From sequence record NZ_LR134445.1: a stretch of DNA of 64,000 nucleotides; one strand, given 5' to 3'. Shown here piece by piece: positions 26,437-33,277 of the stretch (position 1 is the stretch's first letter; every line of letters starts with the position of its first letter). Both the position numbers and the translations under genes were made by a program. The notes under the pieces were generated by a model. It saw only the letters and a list, made by a program, of their open reading frames with translations, was not told the origin of the DNA and did no database searches. Origin of the DNA: a plasmid.

Positions 26437-26818
26437 AGAAGCCGATCGCCTTGTCGCCGCTGTCGCAGCGCGCGAGCATGCCGGGGGTCTGCGGGAACGT
26501 GCAGTTCCAGCCCTCGACGGTGGCGGGCTTCGCCATCGCGATCTGCGGTCCGAAGGCGTTGGCGACGCGCATGGCCTCGGCGCAGTCGACCTTCGTGGTG
26601 CCCAGCGCGTGCACGTACAGGGCGCCGTCGGGGCCGCGGGTCTGCCCGCACATCTCGGCGCGGGTCTCGGCCACCGTCGTCGTGGCCGACGGTGCGCCGG
26701 ACGGCGCGGGGCTCGCGGCCGGGTCGGAGGAACTGCCGCAGCCCGCGAGGAGCAGGCCGCACACTGTTGCAGTTGCGACGGCTGTGACAGGCGTTGCGAA
26801 GTGCTGAAATGCGGTCAT
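26423..26818 (-). CDS. Lipoprotein (132 aa)
   Basis: Signal peptide plus lipobox LLAGC (MTAFQHFATPVTAVATATVCGLLLAGCGSS). Confidence 0.55.
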   Translation of the reverse strand: MTAFQHFATPVTAVATATVCGLLLAGCGSSSDPAASPAPSGAPSATTTVAETRAEMCGQTRGPDGALYVHALGTTKVDCAEAMRVANAFGPQIAMAKPATVEGWNCTFPQTPGMLARCDSGDKAIGFFSSH

Positions 26819-26961
26819 GCCCTGCACGCTACCCGCGAACTGGTGATGAGCCTCACAAAAGTGCCGGTCAGCGACATTATTGCGGGCGGCAACGATCGGT
26901 ACACTCGACAGCGACCCGTATCGCGCAGCCCGTCGCGCCTCGACGACCTGGAGTGACTCGC

Positions 26962-29900
26962 ATGGCACTGTTCCTGTACCGGCTGGGGAGGTTCGCCTAC
27001 CTCAACCGCTTCAAAGTCATCGTGGCGTGGCTGCTGATCTTCGCCGGCATGCTCACCGGCGGCGCGCTTCTCAAGGGCGCCACGGTCGACAACTTCTCCC
27101 TGCCGGGTCTTCCCTCGGCGAAGGCGACGGACATCGTCTCCGAGAACTTCGGCGACAGCGGCGGCGACCCGTTCACCACCGCCTCGGCGACCATCGTCTT
27201 CCACACCAAGGACGGCAAGCTCACCGATCCGGCGGCCGCGGCGGGCATCGACCGCACGATCGCCGACCTCAAGAACCTCACCAAGGACCAGGACGGCCGT
27301 CAGGTCTCCGTGGTCCAGGATCCGGAGCTCCTGCACAACCCGACGGGCAAGCTGGACACCGACGCGCTGACGCCGGAGCAGCGCTCGAAGCTCGAGGCGG
27401 TCGCGGCGCAGGGCAAGGACATCGCGTCGACCAAGACGCAGGCGCAGAAGGACGCCGACGCGGCGGCCACCTCGTCGGTGAGCCCCGACGGCAAGACCGC
27501 CAAGATCACGGTCGACTTCGTCGGCAAGGTCACGGAGCTGCCGGACACCCTGTCCGAGGACATCAAGAAGGCCCGCGAGGCCGGCGAGGCCGCGTCGAAC
27601 GGCACGCTGCAGGTCGAGGCCGACGGTTCCGCCGCCCGCGGTGCCGAGGACATGGGCATGACCAGCGAGATCATCGGCATGATCGTCGCGGCGATCGTCC
27701 TGATCATCACCTTCGCCTCGCTCGTCGCCTGGGGCCTGCCGCTGCTGAACGCGATCATCGCGGTCCCGGTGGCCATCGGCGGCGTCATGATCGCCTCGCA
27801 CTTCATCGAGCTCGGCACCTTCCCCACGGTCCTGACCTCGATGATCGGCCTGGCCGTCACCATCGACTACGCGCTGTTCATCGTGTCCCGGTACCGGCAC
27901 GAACTGCGGCGCCTCGGCGCCACCACCAAGGAGCAGCGGGCCGAGGCCGCGGGCATCGCCGTCGGCACCGCCGGCACCGCCGTGATCTTCGCCGGCCTGA
28001 CGGTGATCATCGCGCTCGCCGCGCTCGCCTTCATCGGCATGGACTTCCTCGGTCAGATGGGCGTCGCCGCCGCGTGGGGCGTGTTCATCGCCGTCATCGT
28101 GGCGCTGACGCTGCTCCCGGCCCTGCTGGGCCTGTTCGGCTCCAAGGTCTTCGCCGGCCGGGTCAAGGGCCTGCATCCGCAGGACACGGACCAGGGCGAG
28201 GGCCGCGTCGCCAACGGCCTGCGCTGGGCCAACCTGGTCAAGAAGGTTCCCGTCGTGACCCTCGTCGCGGGCGTCGCCATCCTCGGCATCCTCGCCATCC
28301 CGATGAAGGACATGAAGACCGCCCTGCCCGGCTCGGGCATGAGCGAGAAGAGCACGTCGGAGCGCCAGGCCTACGACCTCATCTCCGACGCCTGGGGCAA
28401 GGGCGCCAACGGCACCCTCCTCGTCGCGGTCGACGGTGCCGGGGCCCAGCCGAACCAGCGCCTGGGCGCCTACAAGCAGATCGTCGACCAGCTCAACACC
28501 AACCCCAACATCGCGCCGCTCATCGCGAACGCGCAGCTCGCCCAACTCGCGCAGGACAACAAGGCCGCCACCATCATGGTGACGCCCAAGTCCGGCCCGA
28601 ACGACGACGACACCAAGACGCTGGTCACCAAGCTCCGCACCATGACCAACGGTGACGCCGGCACGAAGGCGCGGCTCGGCGTGGACCTCGGCGTCGCGGG
28701 CAGCACGGCCATCGAGATGGACATCTCGGAGAAACTCGGCGACGCGCTGTGGATCTACCTCGGAATCGTCGTGGGTCTGGCGTTCCTGCTGCTGCTCGTC
28801 GCCTTCCGCTCGATCCTGGTGCCGCTCACCGCGGTTCTGGGCTTCCTGCTGTCCGTCGTCGCCACGTTCGGCGTCACCTCCGCGATCTTCACCGACGGTG
28901 CCCTCGGCCTCATCGACAACACGCAGCCGCTGGTCTCGTTCCTGCCGATCTTCCTGATCGGCATCGTCTTCGGCCTCGCGATGGACTACCAGGTCTTCCT
29001 CGTCTCCCGGATGCGCGAGGAGTTCGTGCACACCGGCGACGCCACACAGTCCGTGGTGACGGGCGTGCAGTACGGCGCCCGTGTGGTGACCGCCGCTGCG
29101 ATCATCATGATCTCGGTCTTCGCCTCGTTCATCCTCAACGAGCAGGTCTTCATCAAGGAGATCGGCTTCGGCCTCGCCGCGGCCGTGCTGCTCGACGCCT
29201 TCGTCGTGCGGATGGTCCTGATCCCGTCGGTGATGATGCTGCTCGGCAAGTGGGCGTGGTGGCTGCCGAAGTGGCTCGACAAGATCCTGCCGAACGTCGA
29301 CATCGAGGGCGAGGCGCTCGTCGCCCAGCTCGGCCGCGGCGACGCGAACGCCGATACCGCCGCGATCCCCGCGCCGATCACGGCCGAGATCCCGGTGCCC
29401 ACCGAGCAGCTCGTGGCCGCCGGTGCGACCGATGTCCACGCCCGCGGCAAGGCGCGCGTCGAGCACGCCGGCGTGAACGGCCACACCAACGGCACCACCA
29501 ACGGTGCCGCCCACGGTGCCGAGCTCCCGACGGCCGCCCCGACGGTGCCCGTGCCGCTGCCCCTCGGCAAGGACGACGAGCACGTCACGGAGCAGGCACC
29601 GGTGTACGCGGACACGGAGCAGGTCGCCACGGCGGAGGCGGACGCGGCGGAGGCCGGCGCACCGGACACCGCCGAGTACCCGGTCGCGCGTCCGGGCGTC
29701 CCGCGCCCCGACCAGACCGCGACGGGCCCGATCCGCCCGCGCGACCGGACCCGCGACGAGATCGCGCAGCTGCGCGAGCAGAACAAGGCGATCGCGGCGG
29801 AGCTCAGCGCGCTGCGCTCTGACTACCGGTCGATGGCCAGCCGCACGCGACTGCAGAGCGAGCACATCAGCGATCCCACGCGGTTCGAGATCGAGGGTCG

Positions 29901-31134
29901 CCTCGAGGGGCCCGACGGTCCGCTCGGCCGCGCCGGCCGGCTGCTCACGCCGCACGGCGAGATGCTCACCCCCGCGTTCATCCCCGTCGGCACCAAGGCG
30001 ACGGTGAAGACCGTACTGCCCGAGGCGGTCTCGGAGCTGGGCGCGCAGGCGGTGCTGGCGAACGCCTACCACCTGTACCTGCAGCCCGGACCGGAGATCG
30101 TGGAGCAGGCCGGCGGCCTCGGCGCGTTCATGAACTGGGACGGTCCCACCTTCACCGATTCCGGTGGCTTCCAGGTGATGTCGCTCGGGTCGGGGTTCAA
30201 GAAGGTCATCGACATGACCGGCGGCGAGGAACTGCAGGGCGACGACGCGATCGCCGAGGGCAAGGACCGTCTCTCCCGCGTCGACGACGACGGCGTGACC
30301 TTCCTCAGCCACCTCGACGGCACCGAGCACCGGTTCACTCCGGAGCGGTCGATGCAGATCCAGCACCAGCTCGGCGCCGACGTGATCTTCGCGTTCGACG
30401 AGCTGACCACCCTGCACAACACCCGCGCGTACCAGGTGGAGTCGCTGGAGCGGACCCGCCTGTGGGCGCGGCGCTGCCTCTCCGAGCACAACTGGCTCAC
30501 CGCGCAGCGGCACGATGCGATCTCGCTGTGGGGCGTCGTGCAGGGCGCGCAGTACGAGGACCTGCGCCGCAAGGCCGCCCGCGACCTGCGGGCGCTGAGC
30601 GAGGAGGACCGGTTCTCCGGCGGCCTCGGCTTCGGCGGCTACGGCATCGGCGGGGCGCTGGAGAAGGCGAACCTGTCGACCATCGTGCGCTGGGTGAACC
30701 AGGAGCTCGAGGAGGACAAGCCGAAGCACCTGCTGGGCATCTCCGAGCCGGACGACATCTTCGCCGCGGTGGAGCAGGGCATCGACACGTTCGACTGCGT
30801 CTCCCCGTCGCGGGTGGCCCGCAACGGCGCGATCTACTCGCTCGACGGCCGCTACAACGTGACCAATTCGCGGTTCAAGACGGACTTCCGCCCGCTGGAC
30901 CCGGACACGCAGAACTACACCTCGCAGTACACCCGCGCGTACATCCATCACCTGTTCAAGGCGAAGGAGGGCCTCGCGGCCACGCTGTGCACCATCCATA
31001 ACGAGCAGTTCGTCGTCTCCCTGGTCGCGAAGATCCGGCAGTCGATGATCGACGGGACGTACTGGGACTTCAAGGAGGAGTTCCTGGGGCGCTACTACAA
31101 GGGCACCCAGCAGCACCTCGCCAAGTCCGACTAG
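26962..31134 (+). CDS. MmpL-family RND transporter fused in-frame to a C-terminal TGT-like (queuine tRNA-ribosyltransferase fold) domain, ~1390 aa
   Basis: Single stop-free ORF (track 26794..31134). Residues 1-~780 have 12 TM helices and two periplasmic loops typical of MmpL. A GC3-biased Ala/Pro/Thr-rich linker with a heptad-like segment (DEIAQLREQNKAIAAELSALRSDY) follows. The last ~420 aa carry TGT motifs: TPAFIPVGT, ANAYHLYLQPG, TDSGGFQ, LGADVIFAFDE, WGVVQGAQYEDLR, GIDTFDCV, RAYIHHL. Confidence 0.8.
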   Translation: MALFLYRLGRFAYLNRFKVIVAWLLIFAGMLTGGALLKGATVDNFSLPGLPSAKATDIVSENFGDSGGDPFTTASATIVFHTKDGKLTDPAAAAGIDRTIADLKNLTKDQDGRQVSVVQDPELLHNPTGKLDTDALTPEQRSKLEAVAAQGKDIASTKTQAQKDADAAATSSVSPDGKTAKITVDFVGKVTELPDTLSEDIKKAREAGEAASNGTLQVEADGSAARGAEDMGMTSEIIGMIVAAIVLIITFASLVAWGLPLLNAIIAVPVAIGGVMIASHFIELGTFPTVLTSMIGLAVTIDYALFIVSRYRHELRRLGATTKEQRAEAAGIAVGTAGTAVIFAGLTVIIALAALAFIGMDFLGQMGVAAAWGVFIAVIVALTLLPALLGLFGSKVFAGRVKGLHPQDTDQGEGRVANGLRWANLVKKVPVVTLVAGVAILGILAIPMKDMKTALPGSGMSEKSTSERQAYDLISDAWGKGANGTLLVAVDGAGAQPNQRLGAYKQIVDQLNTNPNIAPLIANAQLAQLAQDNKAATIMVTPKSGPNDDDTKTLVTKLRTMTNGDAGTKARLGVDLGVAGSTAIEMDISEKLGDALWIYLGIVVGLAFLLLLVAFRSILVPLTAVLGFLLSVVATFGVTSAIFTDGALGLIDNTQPLVSFLPIFLIGIVFGLAMDYQVFLVSRMREEFVHTGDATQSVVTGVQYGARVVTAAAIIMISVFASFILNEQVFIKEIGFGLAAAVLLDAFVVRMVLIPSVMMLLGKWAWWLPKWLDKILPNVDIEGEALVAQLGRGDANADTAAIPAPITAEIPVPTEQLVAAGATDVHARGKARVEHAGVNGHTNGTTNGAAHGAELPTAAPTVPVPLPLGKDDEHVTEQAPVYADTEQVATAEADAAEAGAPDTAEYPVARPGVPRPDQTATGPIRPRDRTRDEIAQLREQNKAIAAELSALRSDYRSMASRTRLQSEHISDPTRFEIEGRLEGPDGPLGRAGRLLTPHGEMLTPAFIPVGTKATVKTVLPEAVSELGAQAVLANAYHLYLQPGPEIVEQAGGLGAFMNWDGPTFTDSGGFQVMSLGSGFKKVIDMTGGEELQGDDAIAEGKDRLSRVDDDGVTFLSHLDGTEHRFTPERSMQIQHQLGADVIFAFDELTTLHNTRAYQVESLERTRLWARRCLSEHNWLTAQRHDAISLWGVVQGAQYEDLRRKAARDLRALSEEDRFSGGLGFGGYGIGGALEKANLSTIVRWVNQELEEDKPKHLLGISEPDDIFAAVEQGIDTFDCVSPSRVARNGAIYSLDGRYNVTNSRFKTDFRPLDPDTQNYTSQYTRAYIHHLFKAKEGLAATLCTIHNEQFVVSLVAKIRQSMIDGTYWDFKEEFLGRYYKGTQQHLAKSD

Positions 31135-31168
31135 CGCGGCGGGGCGGGGCCGGCCGTAGGATTCGGAC

Positions 31169-32158
31169 ATGTCCCACGTGGTGGCGCTGCCCGTCTGCGA
31201 CGGGATGACGATGCTCGAGTACGGCACCGTGCTGGAGGCGCTCAGCTTCGAGTGGAACGACCTCCCCTCGCTCGGCTACGACGTGCGCGGCTGCGGGCCG
31301 GCCGACGGGGTGCGGACGCTCGGCGGCGCGGTGCTGCGGCCGGCGTACGGACTGGACGAGATCGCGGGCGCCGACACCGTCATCATCACGGCCGTGTCGG
31401 ACCCGCGGACCGATTCGAACCCGGAGTGGCACGAGCCGCTGCGCGCGGCTGCGGCGAACGGCGCGCGGATCGTCTCGATCTGCACGGGTGCCTTCGCGCT
31501 CGCGGCGGCCGGCCTGCTCGACGGCCGGCGGGCCACGACGCACTGGCGCCACGCGGGCCTCCTGCAGTTCCGCTTCCCGCGGGTGCACGTCACGCCCTCG
31601 GAGCTCTACATCCAGGACGGCCCGGTGCTCACCGGTGCGGGCTCCGCGGCGGGCCTGGACCTGTGCCTGCACCTGATCCGCTCCGATCACGGGGCCGGCA
31701 CCGCGAATGAGGTGGCCCGCCGCCTCGTCGTCGCGCCGCACCGCGACGGCGATCAGTCGCAGTTCGTCAACATCGACACCCTGCGGCCCGACATGGACAA
31801 GCGCTTCGCCGACTTCCTGCAGGGTCTCGCGCACGGCATCGGCGGCGTCAAGGGGCTCGACGACATGGCGGCCCGCGCGGGCGTCTCCCGCCGCACCCTG
31901 CACCGCCGGTTCCGGCAGTACACCGGCGTCGCACCGCTGGAATGGCTGATGCGGCAACGGGTCTACCGCGCCATGCGGTTGTTGGAGACGACGAACGACT
32001 CCGTCACGGCGATCACCGGCCGCGCGGGTTTCGACGCCGAGGAGACGCTGCGCTACCACTTCAAGCGGCAGACCGGCCTCGCTCCCACCGCCTACCGTGA
32101 GCGCTTCCGCGGCAGCGACGTGGGGCGCAGCTCCGCCCGGACGGTGGCCGGATCTTGA
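31169..32158 (+). CDS. GlxA-type AraC family regulator (DJ-1/PfpI domain + AraC HTH)
   Basis: N-terminal GATase1-like with conserved Cys (IVSICTGAFALAAAG). C-terminal AraC HTH (GVSRRTLHRRFRQYTGVAPLEWLMRQRV...). Confidence 0.85.
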   Translation: MSHVVALPVCDGMTMLEYGTVLEALSFEWNDLPSLGYDVRGCGPADGVRTLGGAVLRPAYGLDEIAGADTVIITAVSDPRTDSNPEWHEPLRAAAANGARIVSICTGAFALAAAGLLDGRRATTHWRHAGLLQFRFPRVHVTPSELYIQDGPVLTGAGSAAGLDLCLHLIRSDHGAGTANEVARRLVVAPHRDGDQSQFVNIDTLRPDMDKRFADFLQGLAHGIGGVKGLDDMAARAGVSRRTLHRRFRQYTGVAPLEWLMRQRVYRAMRLLETTNDSVTAITGRAGFDAEETLRYHFKRQTGLAPTAYRERFRGSDVGRSSARTVAGS

Positions 32159-32215: not shown

Positions 32216-32431
32216 ATGAGGATTCAGCAGATGAGGAAGGTCTTCGGCGGCACCCGGGCGGCCCCGACGACGAACCGGACCCTGGGATGGCTGCGGGAGT
32301 TCGCCTCCGGTGTCGCGGCGGGCAACCTCGTCCGGCACGGCGCCGGCGTGCCCGGCGCGCACGACTCGCGGATCTGCGAGCGGCCGCGGCTGGGCCCCGC
32401 TCCCGCTGGGCGGCACGCCTCAGAGCGGTAG
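32216..32431 (+). CDS. Small hypothetical ORF (71 aa), uncertain
   Basis: GC3-biased open frame in the convergent gap, overlaps gluQ 3' end by 12 nt. No homology recognised. Confidence 0.15.
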
Positions 32432-33277
32432 CGTCCAGGGCTCGCGCGGCAGCCGCGCGGGGTCGAAGTCGTCGAGCATCTCGCGCGGCGTGCGACCGCG
32501 CAGCCCCAGGCTCGCGGCCAACTCGGGGAGCACCACCGCCGGCCCGCCGCGCTCGGCGAGGGTGACGGCACCGTCGCGCTTCGCGAGCCGGACGCCGGTG
32601 GGCCCCAGCACCATCGGCACGTGGGCGTAGGTCGGAGGCGCCCCGCCGAGGAGGGTCGTCAGGTACGCCTGGCGGGGCGCGGAGGAGAGCAGGTCGTCGC
32701 CGCGCACCACCTGGTCGACACCCTGCGCGGCGTCGTCGACCACCACGGCCAGGTTGTAGGCGTACGTCCCGTCGCCCCGTCGCAGCACGACATCGTCCAC
32801 GGCACCGGTGTACTCGCCGTGCAGCAGATCCGTCACGGTGAACGACGGGACCGTCGCGCGCAGGCGCACCGCCGCCGGCCGCTCCCGCCGCCGGACCACC
32901 CGCTCGGCCTCCGTGAGGTCGCGGCAGGTGCCCGGGTACGCGCCCTCCGGCGCGTGCGGCGCCGACGGTGCGGCGAGGATCTCCCGCCGCGTGCAGTAGC
33001 ACTCGTAGACGTCGAGCCGCTCCAGCGCCGCCGCGTAGCGTGCGGTTCGCTCCGACTGCCGCACCGTCTCGCCGTCCCAGTCCAGGCCCAGCGCGGCGAG
33101 GTCGGCGAGCTGTCGCGCCTCGGCACCGTCGGCCGTGCGGCCGGTGTCCAGGTCCTCGACGCGCATCAGGAAGTCCCGCCCCGTCGAGCGGGCGAAGAGC
33201 CAGGCGAGCAGGGCTGTCCGCAGGTTGCCCACGTGCAGGTCGCCCGACGGGCTCGGCGCGTACCGTCCAGCTGTCAC
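32420..33277 (-). CDS. gluQ: Glutamyl-Q tRNA(Asp) synthetase (GluRS-like catalytic-domain paralogue)
   Basis: [19 protein letters not shown] (HIGH-type) motif, Zn-binding Cys cluster (YECYCTRRE...GTC), [14 protein letters not shown] (KMSKS-like), ~285 aa without an anticodon-binding domain. Confidence 0.85.

What the first reader, a model, noticed from the sequence alone, without database searches (positions are those of the whole stretch)
26962..31134. One uninterrupted ORF fuses a complete MmpL/RND transporter to a TGT (tRNA-guanine transglycosylase)-fold domain
The six-frame track shows a single 4341-nt stop-free frame. Reading it, residues 1-~780 are a canonical MmpL: N-terminal TM, periplasmic domain, TM bundle, second periplasmic domain, TM bundle ending ...LGKWAWWLPKWLDKILPNVD. 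A ~190-aa Ala/Pro/Thr/Glu-rich linker follows. Its third codon positions are almost all G/C, so this frame is genuinely coding rather than chance read-through. The linker ends in a heptad-like segment (DEIAQLREQNKAIAAELSALRSDY). The last ~420 aa align motif-by-motif with bacterial Tgt: TPAFIPVGT, ANAYHL, TDSGGFQ, FAFDE, VVQGA..EDLR, GIDTFDCV, RAYIHHL. MmpL C-termini are cytoplasmic, so this would tether a TGT-like enzyme to the inner face of a lipid/small-molecule exporter. I have not seen this architecture described. An internal ATG at ~29833 (MASRTRLQSEHISDPTRFEIEG...) lies 13 codons before the canonical Tgt N-terminus (KFELD-equivalent), so a free TGT-like isoform is also possible.
Basis: partly seen in the sequence, partly recalled or inferred. 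Interest (0 to 1): 0.9.

Follow-up and report, generated by a model that had tools for sequence, protein, structure and literature searches.

The report
Membrane-anchored tRNA enzyme fused to MmpL
In Tsukamurella the gene for the tRNA-modifying enzyme Tgt has merged in frame with the lipid/drug-pump gene in front of it, so the enzyme is made tethered to the cell membrane; the fusion is real and conserved across the genus, but it was already listed in a 2024 paper and its purpose is still untested.

Summary
Window 26962..31134(+) is one 1390-codon ORF (Tsukamurella tyrosinosolvens; UniProt A0A1H5C6U4) made of an MmpL/RND transporter, a ~145-aa disordered linker, a conserved 39-residue helix and a full bacterial Tgt. 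It is not an artefact. The exact protein is on 5 independently assembled contigs. All 16 Tsukamurella species loci support one frame, despite 10 linker lengths and 42 frame-preserving gap blocks. Linker GC3 is 0.945.

In Williamsia and Jongsikchunia the two genes are separate neighbours with a stop codon, so the fusion arose by stop loss in the Tsukamurella ancestor.

The proposed internal ATG (29833) is what RefSeq uses as the Tgt start. It has no Shine-Dalgarno, is ACG in the deepest branches, and lies inside the helix at a leucine-zipper core position. The helix upstream of it has dN/dS of about 0-0.1.

The claim of novelty fails. Epigenomes 2024 (PMC11130926) Table S1 lists this very protein as an MMPL-TGT fusion and a candidate queuosine-precursor transporter.

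Not discussed in that paper's main text: the zipper, loss of the Tgt zinc cysteines, and a second genus-wide fusion. In that one a different MmpL carries the same zipper plus a catalytically degenerate, selectively maintained Tgt-like domain.

The parts
26950..26953 (+). Shine-Dalgarno-like GGAG, 9 nt upstream of the ATG start of the fusion ORF
   Evidence: Read directly from the sequence. All orthologues start at the same MAL(F/L)LYR.
26962..31134 (+). Whole fusion ORF, 1390 codons plus stop; identical to GenBank SED62201.1 / UniProt A0A1H5C6U4 (Tsukamurella tyrosinosolvens)
   Evidence: 0 differences to P0506.
26962..29313 (+). MmpL/RND transporter module (residues 1-784), with two MMPL halves and proton-relay Asp-Tyr pairs D302/Y303 and D675/Y676; ends ...AWWLPKWLDKILPNVDIEGE
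   Evidence: Pfam PF03176, 2 stretches. Closest solved structure is MmpL3, E 7e-49. DY pairs are invariant in A1. It is not an MmpL3 orthologue (213 bits against a cutoff of 1400).
29314..29742 (+). Hypervariable Ala/Pro/Thr/Glu-rich disordered linker (residues 785-927)
   Evidence: GC3 0.945. Ten distinct lengths (170-241 codons from WWLPKWLD to the Tgt core) and 42 distinct gap blocks, all preserving the frame. dN/dS is 0.14-0.5 in close pairs. AF2 pLDDT is below 50.
29743..29859 (+). Conserved 39-residue helix (residues 928-966). Its core at 29761-29835 (I934 L937 N941 I944 L948 L951 Y955 M958) has the a/d pattern of a short leucine zipper with a buried Asn and E-R pairs at g/e positions.
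   Evidence: AF2 helix at model residues 32-70, pLDDT about 77-93. The heptad register score is 0.88 against 0.55 or less for all other registers, and the core residues are invariant in 16 type-1 and 13 type-2 sequences. dN/dS is 0-0.1. g/e residues.
29833..29835 (+). Internal ATG (Met958), used by RefSeq as the start of a 433-aa Tgt (WP_082791514.1); here read as a zipper core residue
   Evidence: P0503 is an exact suffix of the ORF. No SD in -18..-4 in any species, and ACG in sp. 8F and T. soli. Leu/Ile at this position in type-2. It lies inside the predicted helix.
29860..31131 (+). Bacterial-type tRNA-guanine(34) transglycosylase domain (residues 967-1390). Catalytic D1066 (Zm D102), D1146 (D156) and D1278 (D280) are present, as are dimer hot-spot residues F1056, Y1323, Y1327 and H1330.
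   Evidence: AF2 core pLDDT is above 90, and Foldseek gives TM 0.90-0.93 to Z. mobilis Tgt. Hot-spot residues as defined in bioRxiv 10.1101/2020.09.01.277731.
30649..30666 (+). Substrate-pocket loop GGALEK, replacing the canonical GGLAVGE; Leu1148 replaces Zm Cys158
   Evidence: (Leu in 116 of 120 closest homologues; ALEK-type loop).
30898..30933 (+). Former zinc-binding segment DPDTQNYTSQYT: the three Cys ligands are gone; the fourth ligand His (H1346) is retained
   Evidence: Alignment to Z. mobilis Tgt. 0 Cys in 73 and 3 Cys in 20 of 93 close homologues. Mycobacterium deserti keeps CDCYTC.
32420..33277 (-). GluQRS (tRNA glutamyl-Q34 synthetase). This is context rather than part of the fusion; it marks the locus as the clade's conserved queuosine locus.
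   Evidence: NF004315 311 bits (cutoff 250) and TIGR03838 299 bits (cutoff 276.7). By N-terminal sequence similarity the same gene lies downstream of tgt in Gordonia, Rhodococcoides and Jongsikchunia, and a PF00749 gene follows tgt in T. soli and W. soli.

Best explanation
This is a real translational gene fusion. It arose in the ancestor of Tsukamurella when the stop codon of an MmpL (RND) transporter gene was lost, so that it ran into the tgt gene immediately downstream. The product is a 148-kDa inner-membrane protein with four parts: a 12-TM proton-driven MmpL, a roughly 145-residue disordered cytoplasmic tether, a short parallel leucine zipper, and a catalytically equipped Tgt. Bacterial Tgt works only as a homodimer. 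I infer that the zipper and the long tether let the Tgt domains of two membrane-bound protomers pair up, so the enzyme exchanges G34 of tRNA-Asp/Asn/His/Tyr for a salvaged 7-deazaguanine base at the inner face of the membrane. That base is probably queuine, given the clade's altered pocket and the published pathway prediction for Actinomycetota. The sequence evidence shows the continuous coding frame, its conservation, selection on the pre-ATG helix, and retention of the catalytic and dimer-interface residues. Membrane tethering of the mature protein, dimerisation through the zipper, the substrate, and any functional link between the pump and the enzyme are all inferred.
For: One frame with no stop, and the exact protein on 5 contigs. 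14 of 16 Tsukamurella species loci are uninterrupted. The T. soli locus in that scan is cut by a contig end, and a second T. soli assembly is in frame from mid-MmpL through Tgt. The PLM1 'frameshift' is two single-C deletions in C-runs relative to an otherwise identical short-read assembly. Linker GC3 is 0.945, with 10 lengths and 42 gap blocks all in frame. The helix upstream of the internal ATG has dN/dS 0-0.1 at dS 0.17-0.73. In the outgroups mmpL stops (TGA) and is followed by 52 nt and a GTG-start tgt in Williamsia soli, with similar arrangements in Jongsikchunia and other Williamsia. The Tgt equivalog score is above cutoff, D102/D156/D280 equivalents are present, and the fold has TM 0.9 to Z. 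mobilis Tgt. Tgt is active only as a homodimer, and the hot-spot residues are retained. The zipper has one clear register and an invariant core Asn. GluQRS lies 1.3 kb away. Most Actinomycetota are predicted to be direct queuine salvagers. The cytoplasmic location of the MmpL C-terminus and the precedent of a disordered C-terminal domain in cluster-II MmpLs come from PMC10171966.
Against: There is no protein-level evidence: no proteomics, Ribo-seq or TSS data were available. RefSeq models the locus as a separate 433-aa Tgt. Leaderless or SD-independent initiation is common in this order (my own knowledge), so an additional free isoform in the crown species cannot be excluded. Proteolysis in the disordered linker could release Tgt. 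The zinc site, which is structural in characterised Tgts, is missing, so activity is not guaranteed, although the stand-alone orthologues in Gordonia and Williamsia share this loss. I could not check whether the genome holds another Tgt or which que genes it has. Zipper oligomeric state and geometric compatibility with the Tgt dimer were not modelled.
Confidence: 0.72

Rival explanations
1. Two functionally separate genes that merely share a frame (the RefSeq model). Tgt is made mainly as a free 433-aa cytosolic enzyme from the internal ATG at 29833, and the read-through fusion is a minor or irrelevant by-product.
For: RefSeq/PGAP annotates 433-436-aa Tgt proteins starting at this Met in many Tsukamurella. 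The ATG is present in 14 crown-group species. The stand-alone orthologues in Gordonia and Williamsia are about 410-430 aa.
Against: With no stop codon, every ribosome that starts at the MmpL ATG must make the fusion. The ATG is ACG in sp. 8F and T. soli, where the NCBI calls begin at ATC and CTG codons, and RefSeq start calls are inconsistent (433, 422 and 414 aa). No SD was found in any species, and no promoter-like site (a weak test). Met958 lies inside a predicted continuous helix at a heptad d position that is Leu/Ile in type-2. The 27 codons upstream are as constrained as the enzyme core. 42 frame-preserving indels in the linker are unexpected if the frame link were irrelevant.
Confidence: 0.15
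2. Substrate channelling (the published hypothesis). The MmpL half imports a queuosine precursor (queuine or preQ1) and hands it directly to the tethered Tgt. This adds to the best explanation and is compatible with it.
For: PMC11130926 used the fusion as a Rosetta-stone clue and found that MMPL is the top family clustering with tgt (326 sequences, 84% in predicted direct-queuine-salvage organisms, z 2.88). mmpL is immediately upstream of tgt in Williamsia and Jongsikchunia. The known transporter QPTR (PF02592) sits beside tgt in Rhodococcoides, but is absent from all Tsukamurella, Williamsia and Gordonia loci and from this 64-kb window.
Against: Characterised MmpL/RND proteins are proton-driven exporters; I know of no importer precedent. 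The only experimental test, Corynebacterium propinquum MmpL in E. coli, did not restore preQ0/preQ1 uptake, although the authors note expression caveats. About 45 Gordonia loci have the orthologous tgt without an MmpL within 7 kb, although Gordonia has the MmpL orthologue elsewhere. A different MmpL and MFS efflux-type pumps in the same genus carry Tgt-like domains, at least one of which lacks the base-binding and catalytic residues, and channelling does not explain that.
Confidence: 0.25
3. The zipper plus Tgt-fold module is mainly a portable cytoplasmic dimerisation or regulatory domain for efflux-type transporters. Catalysis in the type-1 copy is a retained ancestral extra, and live and dead copies may pair as QTRT1 and QTRT2 do in eukaryotes.
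For: A second fusion family (13 clusters, 70-99% identity, 1158-1199 aa) places the same zipper and a Tgt-like domain on a different MmpL. That MmpL is 40% identical to this one and 63-73% identical to stand-alone MmpLs of other genera. Its Tgt-like domain has lost the SGGFQ loop, D156, Q203 and the pocket loop, and D280 is Glu. It nevertheless folds confidently (pLDDT 80-94), has dN/dS 0.20, and keeps RAY(V/L)HHL (Y330/H333). EmrB/QacA-type MFS-TGT fusions also exist in the genus, and this genome has all three kinds. Eukaryotic TGT is a catalytic plus non-catalytic paralogue pair.
Against: No interaction data exist. The type-1 Tgt keeps every catalytic residue under strong purifying selection (dN/dS about 0.06-0.14) and sits in the conserved tgt-gluQRS locus, so catalysis is clearly its selected function. 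F92 and W95 equivalents are not invariant in type-2. The MFS-TGT sequences could not be retrieved, so I could not test whether they carry the zipper or are degenerate.
Confidence: 0.15
4. Assembly or sequencing artefact: an indel removed a stop or joined two frames.
For: Two public assemblies do show frame breaks (Tsukamurella sp. PLM1 in the linker; T. soli GCA_042666795.1 inside the MmpL half).
Against: The exact 1390-aa protein is on 5 contigs from different projects. 14 species have the uninterrupted frame. The PLM1 breaks are two single-C deletions in C-homopolymers relative to a short-read assembly with no other differences. The second T. soli assembly lacks the MmpL frameshift (P0010).
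Confidence: 0.01

Closest known systems
MMPL-TGT fusions of Tsukamurella listed in Epigenomes 2024;8(2):16 (PMC11130926): Tpau_4044 / UniProt D5UNC0 in the text; A0A1H5C6U4_TSUTY in Table S1
   Same: It is the same protein family, and Table S1 lists the very protein of this window. The domain call is the same (PF03176 + PF01702).
   Different: The paper's main text gives the fusions two sentences, treats all of them as 'bTGT' fusions and uses them only as a clue for Q-precursor transporters. The passages I read do not mention the zipper, the missing zinc cysteines, the internal-start and annotation conflict, the stop-loss origin, or that one fusion family has a degenerate Tgt domain.
Canonical bacterial Tgt (Zymomonas mobilis / E. 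coli; TIGR00430)
   Same: Same fold (TM 0.9, rmsd 2.1-2.5 A), about 38-39% identity. The catalytic Asp triad equivalents, Gln203, and the dimer hot-spot residues F92, Y330 and H333 are retained.
   Different: It is N-terminally fused to a transporter through a tether and zipper. The Cys3 part of the Zn site is lost. The pocket loop is GGALEK instead of GGLAVGE, and C158 is Leu. There is an insertion of about 25 residues after the SGGFQ loop.
Stand-alone Tgt next to an MmpL gene in Williamsia and Jongsikchunia (e.g. W. soli L005)
   Same: The orthologues are 74-78% identical in Tgt and about 45-49% in MmpL. Gene order and orientation are the same, the Zn-less and ALEK features are the same, and gluQRS is nearby.
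   Different: There is a stop codon and an intergenic gap of about 50-130 nt. The frames differ in most loci. There is no long linker and no zipper helix.
Cluster-II MmpL transporters with a cytoplasmic C-terminal domain (MmpL3, MmpL11, MmpL13)
   Same: RND/MmpL architecture with Asp-Tyr proton relay pairs and a long, disordered, cytoplasmic C-terminal extension. In MmpL3 that extension serves localisation, partner binding and phosphoregulation and is dispensable for transport.
   Different: It is not an MmpL3 orthologue (213 bits against a cutoff of 1400). Here the disordered tail ends in a folded enzyme domain.
Eukaryotic TGT: catalytic QTRT1 plus non-catalytic paralogue QTRT2
   Same: A queuine-type enzyme accompanied in the same genome by a paralogue that has lost catalytic residues but keeps the fold. 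From my own memory, untested here: the eukaryotic enzyme has been reported to associate with the mitochondrial outer membrane.
   Different: No evidence that the Tsukamurella live and dead domains pair. Both are covalently attached to transporters. Origin is independent.
TGT-QPTR (PF01702 + PF02592) fusions in Bacillota
   Same: Tgt is covalently joined to a membrane transporter.
   Different: There the partner is a proven Q-precursor importer family and the domain order is different. Here the partner is an exporter-type RND protein with no demonstrated link to queuosine.

Membership tests
Bacterial tRNA-guanine(34) transglycosylase (Tgt; TIGR00430 / PF01702) | Profile score above the curated equivalog cutoff | tested here: met
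   377.1 bits against a cutoff of 306.75; Pfam TGT E 2.4e-113.
Bacterial tRNA-guanine(34) transglycosylase (Tgt; TIGR00430 / PF01702) | Catalytic residues: nucleophile Asp280, Asp102, base-binding Asp156, Gln203 (Z. mobilis numbering; roles from my own knowledge) | tested here: met
   D1278, D1066, D1146 and Q1194 are aligned and present, and nearly invariant in the fusion orthologues.
Bacterial tRNA-guanine(34) transglycosylase (Tgt; TIGR00430 / PF01702) | Structural Zn site Cys318-Cys320-Cys323-His349 | tested here: not met
   The three Cys positions are T1316, N1318 and a gap; only the His (H1346) remains. The loss is shared with the Gordonia, Williamsia and Jongsikchunia orthologues; the triad is retained in Rhodococcoides and Mycobacterium deserti.
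Bacterial tRNA-guanine(34) transglycosylase (Tgt; TIGR00430 / PF01702) | preQ1-type pocket (Cys158; Leu231-Ala232-Val233-Gly234-Glu235 loop) | tested here: not met
   Leu1148 and a shortened GGALEK loop. This is consistent with, but does not prove, a switch to queuine as predicted for Actinomycetota.
Bacterial tRNA-guanine(34) transglycosylase (Tgt; TIGR00430 / PF01702) | (beta/alpha)8 Tgt fold with C-terminal helical subdomain | tested here: met
   AF2 pLDDT is above 90 in the core. Foldseek top hits are all Z. mobilis Tgt, TMt 0.90-0.93.
Bacterial tRNA-guanine(34) transglycosylase (Tgt; TIGR00430 / PF01702) | Homodimer interface aromatic cluster (Phe92', Trp/Tyr/Phe326, Tyr330, His333) | tested here: met
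   F1056, Y1323, Y1327 and H1330 are present. The cluster is defined in bioRxiv 10.1101/2020.09.01.277731. Dimerisation itself is not testable here.
Bacterial tRNA-guanine(34) transglycosylase (Tgt; TIGR00430 / PF01702) | Base-exchange activity on tRNA G34 | not testable with these tools
   Indirect support only: a GluQRS gene, whose substrate is Q34-tRNA-Asp, lies 1.3 kb away.
MmpL / RND transporter (PF03176) | Two MMPL repeats forming a 12-TM core with two periplasmic porter loops | tested here: met
   Pfam MMPL, 2 stretches, E 1.8e-87. Matches MmpL3 structures in two stretches. The AF2 model of the type-2 paralogue shows the expected helices and porter domains.
MmpL / RND transporter (PF03176) | Proton-relay Asp-Tyr pairs in TM4 and TM10 | tested here: met
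   D302-Y303 (TIDYALF) and D675-Y676 (AMDYQVF), invariant in the A1 alignment. The feature is as described in PMC10171966.
MmpL3 (trehalose monomycolate exporter) orthologue | NF052608 equivalog score at or above 1400 | tested here: not met
   213 bits. This is a different MmpL subfamily, so its substrate is unknown.
Parallel dimeric leucine zipper (GCN4-like) | Continuous a/d hydrophobic heptads with a buried polar Asn at an a position, and complementary g/e charges | tested here: met
   Core I/L, L, N, I/L, L, L, Y, M/L/I at 3-4 spacing, invariant in 29 sequences. Register score is 0.88 against 0.55 or less. g/e pairs are E933-R938 and E947-R952. That a core Asn specifies parallel dimers is from my own knowledge.
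Parallel dimeric leucine zipper (GCN4-like) | Actual dimer formation and orientation | not testable with these tools
   Only a monomer AF2 model was possible; it shows a single 39-residue helix.
Queuosine-precursor transporter | Demonstrated uptake of preQ0, preQ1 or queuine, or membership of QPTR (PF02592) or QrtT (PF12822) | tested here: not met
   The transporter half is PF03176, not PF02592 or PF12822. The only published functional test of an MmpL neighbour of tgt was negative. Transport by this protein has not been tested.
QTRT1/QTRT2-like catalytic + non-catalytic TGT pair | A catalytically dead paralogue encoded in the same genome | tested here: met
   Type-2 fusions are found in T. tyrosinosolvens (P0394; A0A1H4YVQ5 in Table S1). 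Their catalytic motifs are lost.
QTRT1/QTRT2-like catalytic + non-catalytic TGT pair | Physical heterodimer required for activity | not testable with these tools
   No multimer modelling or interaction data were available.

The most novel reading that the evidence does not exclude
In Tsukamurella a 'zipper + Tgt-fold' cassette has become a mobile cytoplasmic module installed on several unrelated efflux-type pumps: two MmpLs and one or two EmrB/QacA MFS proteins per genome. The catalytically dead copies might pair, through the shared zipper and the conserved Tgt dimer interface, with the one live copy encoded in this window. That would give a membrane-anchored heterodimeric TGT that evolved independently of the eukaryotic QTRT1/QTRT2 enzyme, and it would physically couple tRNA queuosine modification to transporter complexes.
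Probability: 0.1. Interest if true: 0.8.

Novelty: already known. Interest (0 to 1): 0.45.

Why it matters
The fusion makes one open question directly testable: how Actinomycetota that lack known queuosine-precursor transporters obtain the base. It is also a natural example of a tRNA-modifying enzyme confined to the membrane. On the practical side, RefSeq currently splits the ORF. It annotates a 414-436-aa Tgt with inconsistent and sometimes non-canonical starts, and in at least one assembly leaves the MmpL half without a protein call. Pan-genome and transporter surveys that rely on RefSeq will therefore miss both the pump and the fusion. The details that are new relative to the passages of that paper I read turn a database curiosity into specific experiments. 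These are a conserved zipper, a Zn-less Tgt clade, and selectively maintained dead-Tgt domains on other pumps.

Tried and rejected
(1) Assembly artefact: rejected by cross-assembly comparison.

(2) Chance open frame in GC-rich DNA. Stop absence alone is not significant (P 0.15). A 1470-aa antisense ORF (26815..31227) shows how easily such frames arise. The idea is rejected on GC3 periodicity, dN/dS and frame-preserving indels.

(3) Looked for a copy of the type-2 paralogue and for a QPTR gene in the window: none.

(4) Tried to recover the MFS-TGT fusions with a degenerate zipper DNA pattern in metagenome contigs. Only one type-1 and one type-2 locus came back, so whether the MFS fusions carry the zipper or a degenerate Tgt remains untested.

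(5) The promoter/terminator consensus scan of 29200-29950 found nothing, but the tool is not suited to high-GC actinobacterial promoters.

(6) Considered that MmpL-tgt adjacency is universal in the clade: rejected, because most Gordonia loci lack it.

(7) Considered filing the MmpL half as MmpL3: rejected (213 bits against a cutoff of 1400).

(8) The AF2 models could not be inspected at coordinate level, so pocket geometry and the compatibility of a parallel zipper with the Tgt two-fold axis were not evaluated.

Full report
**Observation**

The window holds a 4341-nt stop-free frame at 26794..31134(+). The biologically sensible start is ATG 26962. It is preceded by GGAG at 26950-26953 and shared by all orthologues, giving 1390 residues. 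Pfam finds MMPL in two stretches and TGT over residues 989-1379. The NCBIfam Tgt equivalog model scores 377 bits against a cutoff of 306.75.

The protein is identical to GenBank SED62201.1 / UniProt A0A1H5C6U4 of Tsukamurella tyrosinosolvens. Codon-position GC in the linker is 0.81/0.58/0.945, the same periodicity as in the MmpL and Tgt parts. Absence of stops by itself would not be significant in this 70-77% GC DNA (P about 0.15 in shuffles). A 1470-aa antisense ORF illustrates that point.

**Is the fusion real?**

- The exact protein is encoded on 5 contigs from different projects, including an independent Logan assembly.
- Nine protein clusters at 67-100% identity have the full MMPL+TGT architecture.
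- A genome-collection scan with the Tgt domain returned 16 Tsukamurella species loci.
  - In 14 of them the MmpL and Tgt parts share one uninterrupted frame.
  - The T. soli locus in that scan is cut by a contig end. A second T. soli assembly is in frame from mid-MmpL through Tgt, and its frameshift inside the MmpL half is absent from the first assembly's 939-aa partial protein.
  - Tsukamurella sp. PLM1 shows frame changes in the linker. These are two single-C deletions in C-homopolymers relative to a short-read assembly that is otherwise identical over 4113 nt.
- The linker has 10 different lengths (170-241 codons) among 15 species, and 42 distinct gap blocks, all preserving the frame.
- Linker dN/dS is 0.14-0.5 in close pairs. 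For the 27 codons just upstream of the internal ATG it is 0-0.1 at dS 0.17-0.73, as constrained as the Tgt core. That segment must therefore be translated in this frame.

**Origin**

In Williamsia soli a 782-aa MmpL orthologue ends with TGA, followed by 52 nt and a GTG-start 420-aa tgt. Jongsikchunia and most Williamsia loci have the same separate, co-directional pair. Rhodococcoides has the MmpL 3.7 kb away, and about 45 Gordonia loci have none within 7 kb. The fusion therefore arose in the Tsukamurella lineage by loss of the mmpL stop and growth of a linker.

GluQRS lies just downstream on the opposite strand in the window (32420..33277, above equivalog cutoffs). By sequence it is also there in Gordonia, Rhodococcoides and Jongsikchunia. 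This is the clade's conserved queuosine locus, and the fused Tgt is the orthologue of their stand-alone Tgt.

**Anatomy**

- **Residues 1-784** form an MmpL with both proton-relay Asp-Tyr pairs, D302/Y303 and D675/Y676 (feature per PMC10171966). Its closest solved relative is MmpL3, but it is not an MmpL3 orthologue.
- **Residues 785-927** are disordered (AF2 pLDDT below 50).
- **Residues 928-966** are predicted as one continuous helix.
  - Its core residues I934, L937, N941, I944, L948, L951, Y955 and M958 fall in a single heptad register. The score is 0.88, against 0.55 or less for the other registers.
  - It has an invariant Asn at an a position and E-R pairs at g/e positions. From my own knowledge, this is the pattern of a short parallel dimeric zipper.
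- **Residues 967-1390** are a bacterial Tgt fold (Foldseek TM 0.90-0.93 to Z. mobilis Tgt). The equivalents of D102, D156, Q203 and D280 are intact, and so are the dimer hot-spot residues F92, Y326, Y330 and H333.
- **Departures from canonical Tgt.**
  - The three zinc-ligand cysteines are replaced.
  - The GGLAVGE pocket loop is GGALEK.
  - C158 is Leu.
  - There is an insertion of about 25 residues after the SGGFQ loop.
- The zinc loss is shared by the Gordonia, Williamsia and Jongsikchunia orthologues: 0 Cys in 73 of 93 close homologues and 3 Cys in the other 20. The pocket variant is general in this actinobacterial group.

**The internal ATG**

RefSeq uses ATG 29833 as the start of a 433-aa Tgt that is an exact suffix of the ORF. 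Five observations argue against this being the main route.

- No species has a Shine-Dalgarno in -18..-4.
- The codon is ACG in sp. 8F and T. soli. The NCBI calls there begin at ATC and CTG codons, and RefSeq start calls vary (433, 422 and 414 aa).
- Met958 lies inside the predicted helix.
- Met958 occupies a heptad d position that is Leu/Ile in the paralogous fusion.
- With no stop, ribosomes starting at 26962 must produce the fusion anyway.

An extra free isoform in crown species cannot be excluded without expression data.

**Prior art**

Epigenomes 2024;8(2):16 (PMC11130926) searched for transporter-bTGT fusions. It reports that two kinds, MFS (Tpau_0550/D5USC3) and MMPL (Tpau_4044/D5UNC0), are unique to Tsukamurella. 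D5UNC0 is my P0008. Table S1 lists this window's protein by name and length.

The authors found MMPL to be the top family clustering with tgt: 326 sequences, 84% in predicted direct-queuine-salvage organisms. They tested a Corynebacterium propinquum MmpL for preQ0/preQ1 uptake in E. coli and saw no complementation, with an expression caveat. They also state that most Actinomycetota lack QueA and QueG/H and are predicted to salvage queuine. So the architecture is already known, and its function is still untested.

**Beyond that paper**

An exhaustive representative search found a second fusion family (P0241).

- It comprises 13 clusters at 70-99% identity in T. tyrosinosolvens, ocularis, pulmonis, pseudospumae, strandjordii and others. 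NCBI annotates these at full length.
- Its MmpL half is only about 40% identical to the window's MmpL. It is 63-73% identical to stand-alone MmpLs of Luteipulveratus, Pimelobacter, Nocardia and Amycolatopsis.
- After a hypervariable linker comes the same zipper (ELRASNRALxxELSELRSDYRS). Then comes a Tgt-like domain that has lost the SGGFQ loop, about 50 residues, D156, Q203 and the pocket loop. D280 has become Glu.
- The domain is still predicted to fold confidently (pLDDT 80-94) and has dN/dS 0.20, while its helix has 0.08 and its linker 0.79.
- It keeps the RAY(V/L)HHL interface motif.
- It sits behind a HisKA_3/GerE two-component system.
- Table S1 of the paper shows that this genome also has an EmrB/QacA MFS+TGT protein and that T. 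pulmonis has four such fusions. I could not retrieve those sequences.

**Interpretation**

The best-supported reading is a genuine membrane-anchored Tgt whose tether and zipper allow the obligate dimer to form between two membrane-bound protomers. It acts on tRNA at the inner membrane face, probably with a salvaged base.

Whether the pump supplies that base is open. In favour: the conserved adjacency, and the absence of QPTR near tgt in this sub-clade. QPTR is next to tgt only in Rhodococcoides and one MAG. Against: the exporter nature of MmpLs, the negative published test, the lack of linkage in Gordonia, and the dead-Tgt paralogues on other efflux-type pumps.

Those paralogues suggest an additional, non-catalytic role for the zipper plus Tgt-fold module, such as dimerisation, scaffolding, or a QTRT2-like partner. 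That remains speculation.

Noticed in passing
Not in the window; P0241, P0390-P0401; loci L086, L087-L089, L090: A second, genus-wide MmpL-linker-zipper-Tgt-like fusion on a different MmpL (about 40% identical to this one, 63-73% to stand-alone MmpLs of other genera). Its Tgt domain lacks the catalytic motifs yet is under purifying selection (dN/dS 0.20) and is predicted to fold. It is preceded by a HisKA_3 kinase and a GerE response regulator.
   Followed up: yes
window 30898-30933 (Tgt residues 1313-1324); homologues P0121-P0240: The Cys3 part of the Tgt zinc site is missing in Tsukamurella, Gordonia, Williamsia and Jongsikchunia Tgt (73 of 93 close homologues) and is kept in Rhodococcoides and Mycobacterium deserti. 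I found no mention of a Zn-less bacterial Tgt clade in the papers I read.
   Followed up: partly
window 29833 onward; RefSeq WP_082791514.1 (433 aa), WP_225536148.1 (414 aa), WP_410468452.1 (422 aa): Public annotation is split. GenBank and UniProt call the 1390-aa fusion. RefSeq calls a short Tgt with three different starts, one of them at an ATC codon. In T. soli (L003) the 3.2 kb holding the MmpL half has no protein call at all.
   Followed up: partly
window 26815..31227 (-): A 1470-aa antisense ORF spans the whole fusion gene. It has no homology evidence and is explained by the extreme GC3 of the sense strand, so it is most likely not a gene.
   Followed up: no
L065 3328-10719 (Rhodococcoides corynebacterioides); also L074, L081: An alternative layout of the same locus: two ABC exporter-fold genes (PF00664+PF00005), with the second overlapping tgt by 4 nt. 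A QPTR/Vut_1 queuosine-precursor transporter and, by sequence, gluQRS follow on the opposite strand.
   Followed up: partly
P0246 (542 aa): A Tgt homologue whose TGT domain is split by an inserted DUF559 / MTES_1575 endonuclease-like domain (residues about 238-340).
   Followed up: no
L018 (Tsukamurella sp. PLM1, AP025688.1) and L003 (T. soli GCA_042666795.1): Two assemblies carry frame-breaking indels in this gene. The PLM1 ones are single-C losses in C-runs relative to a short-read assembly, which is typical of long-read homopolymer error and is a caution for pseudogene calls in these genomes.
   Followed up: yes
window 31169..32158 (+): An FtrA-like AraC/DJ-1 family regulator starts 34 nt after the fusion's stop codon. 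It is present in T. tyrosinosolvens and PLM1-like strains but is replaced by a methyltransferase in T. soli. No link to the fusion was examined.
   Followed up: no
PMC11130926 Table S1 (A0A1H4M6N2_TSUTY 1021 aa; A0A1H1C539 982 aa; D5USC3 1062 aa): EmrB/QacA-type MFS efflux permease + TGT fusions exist in the same genomes.
   Followed up: partly
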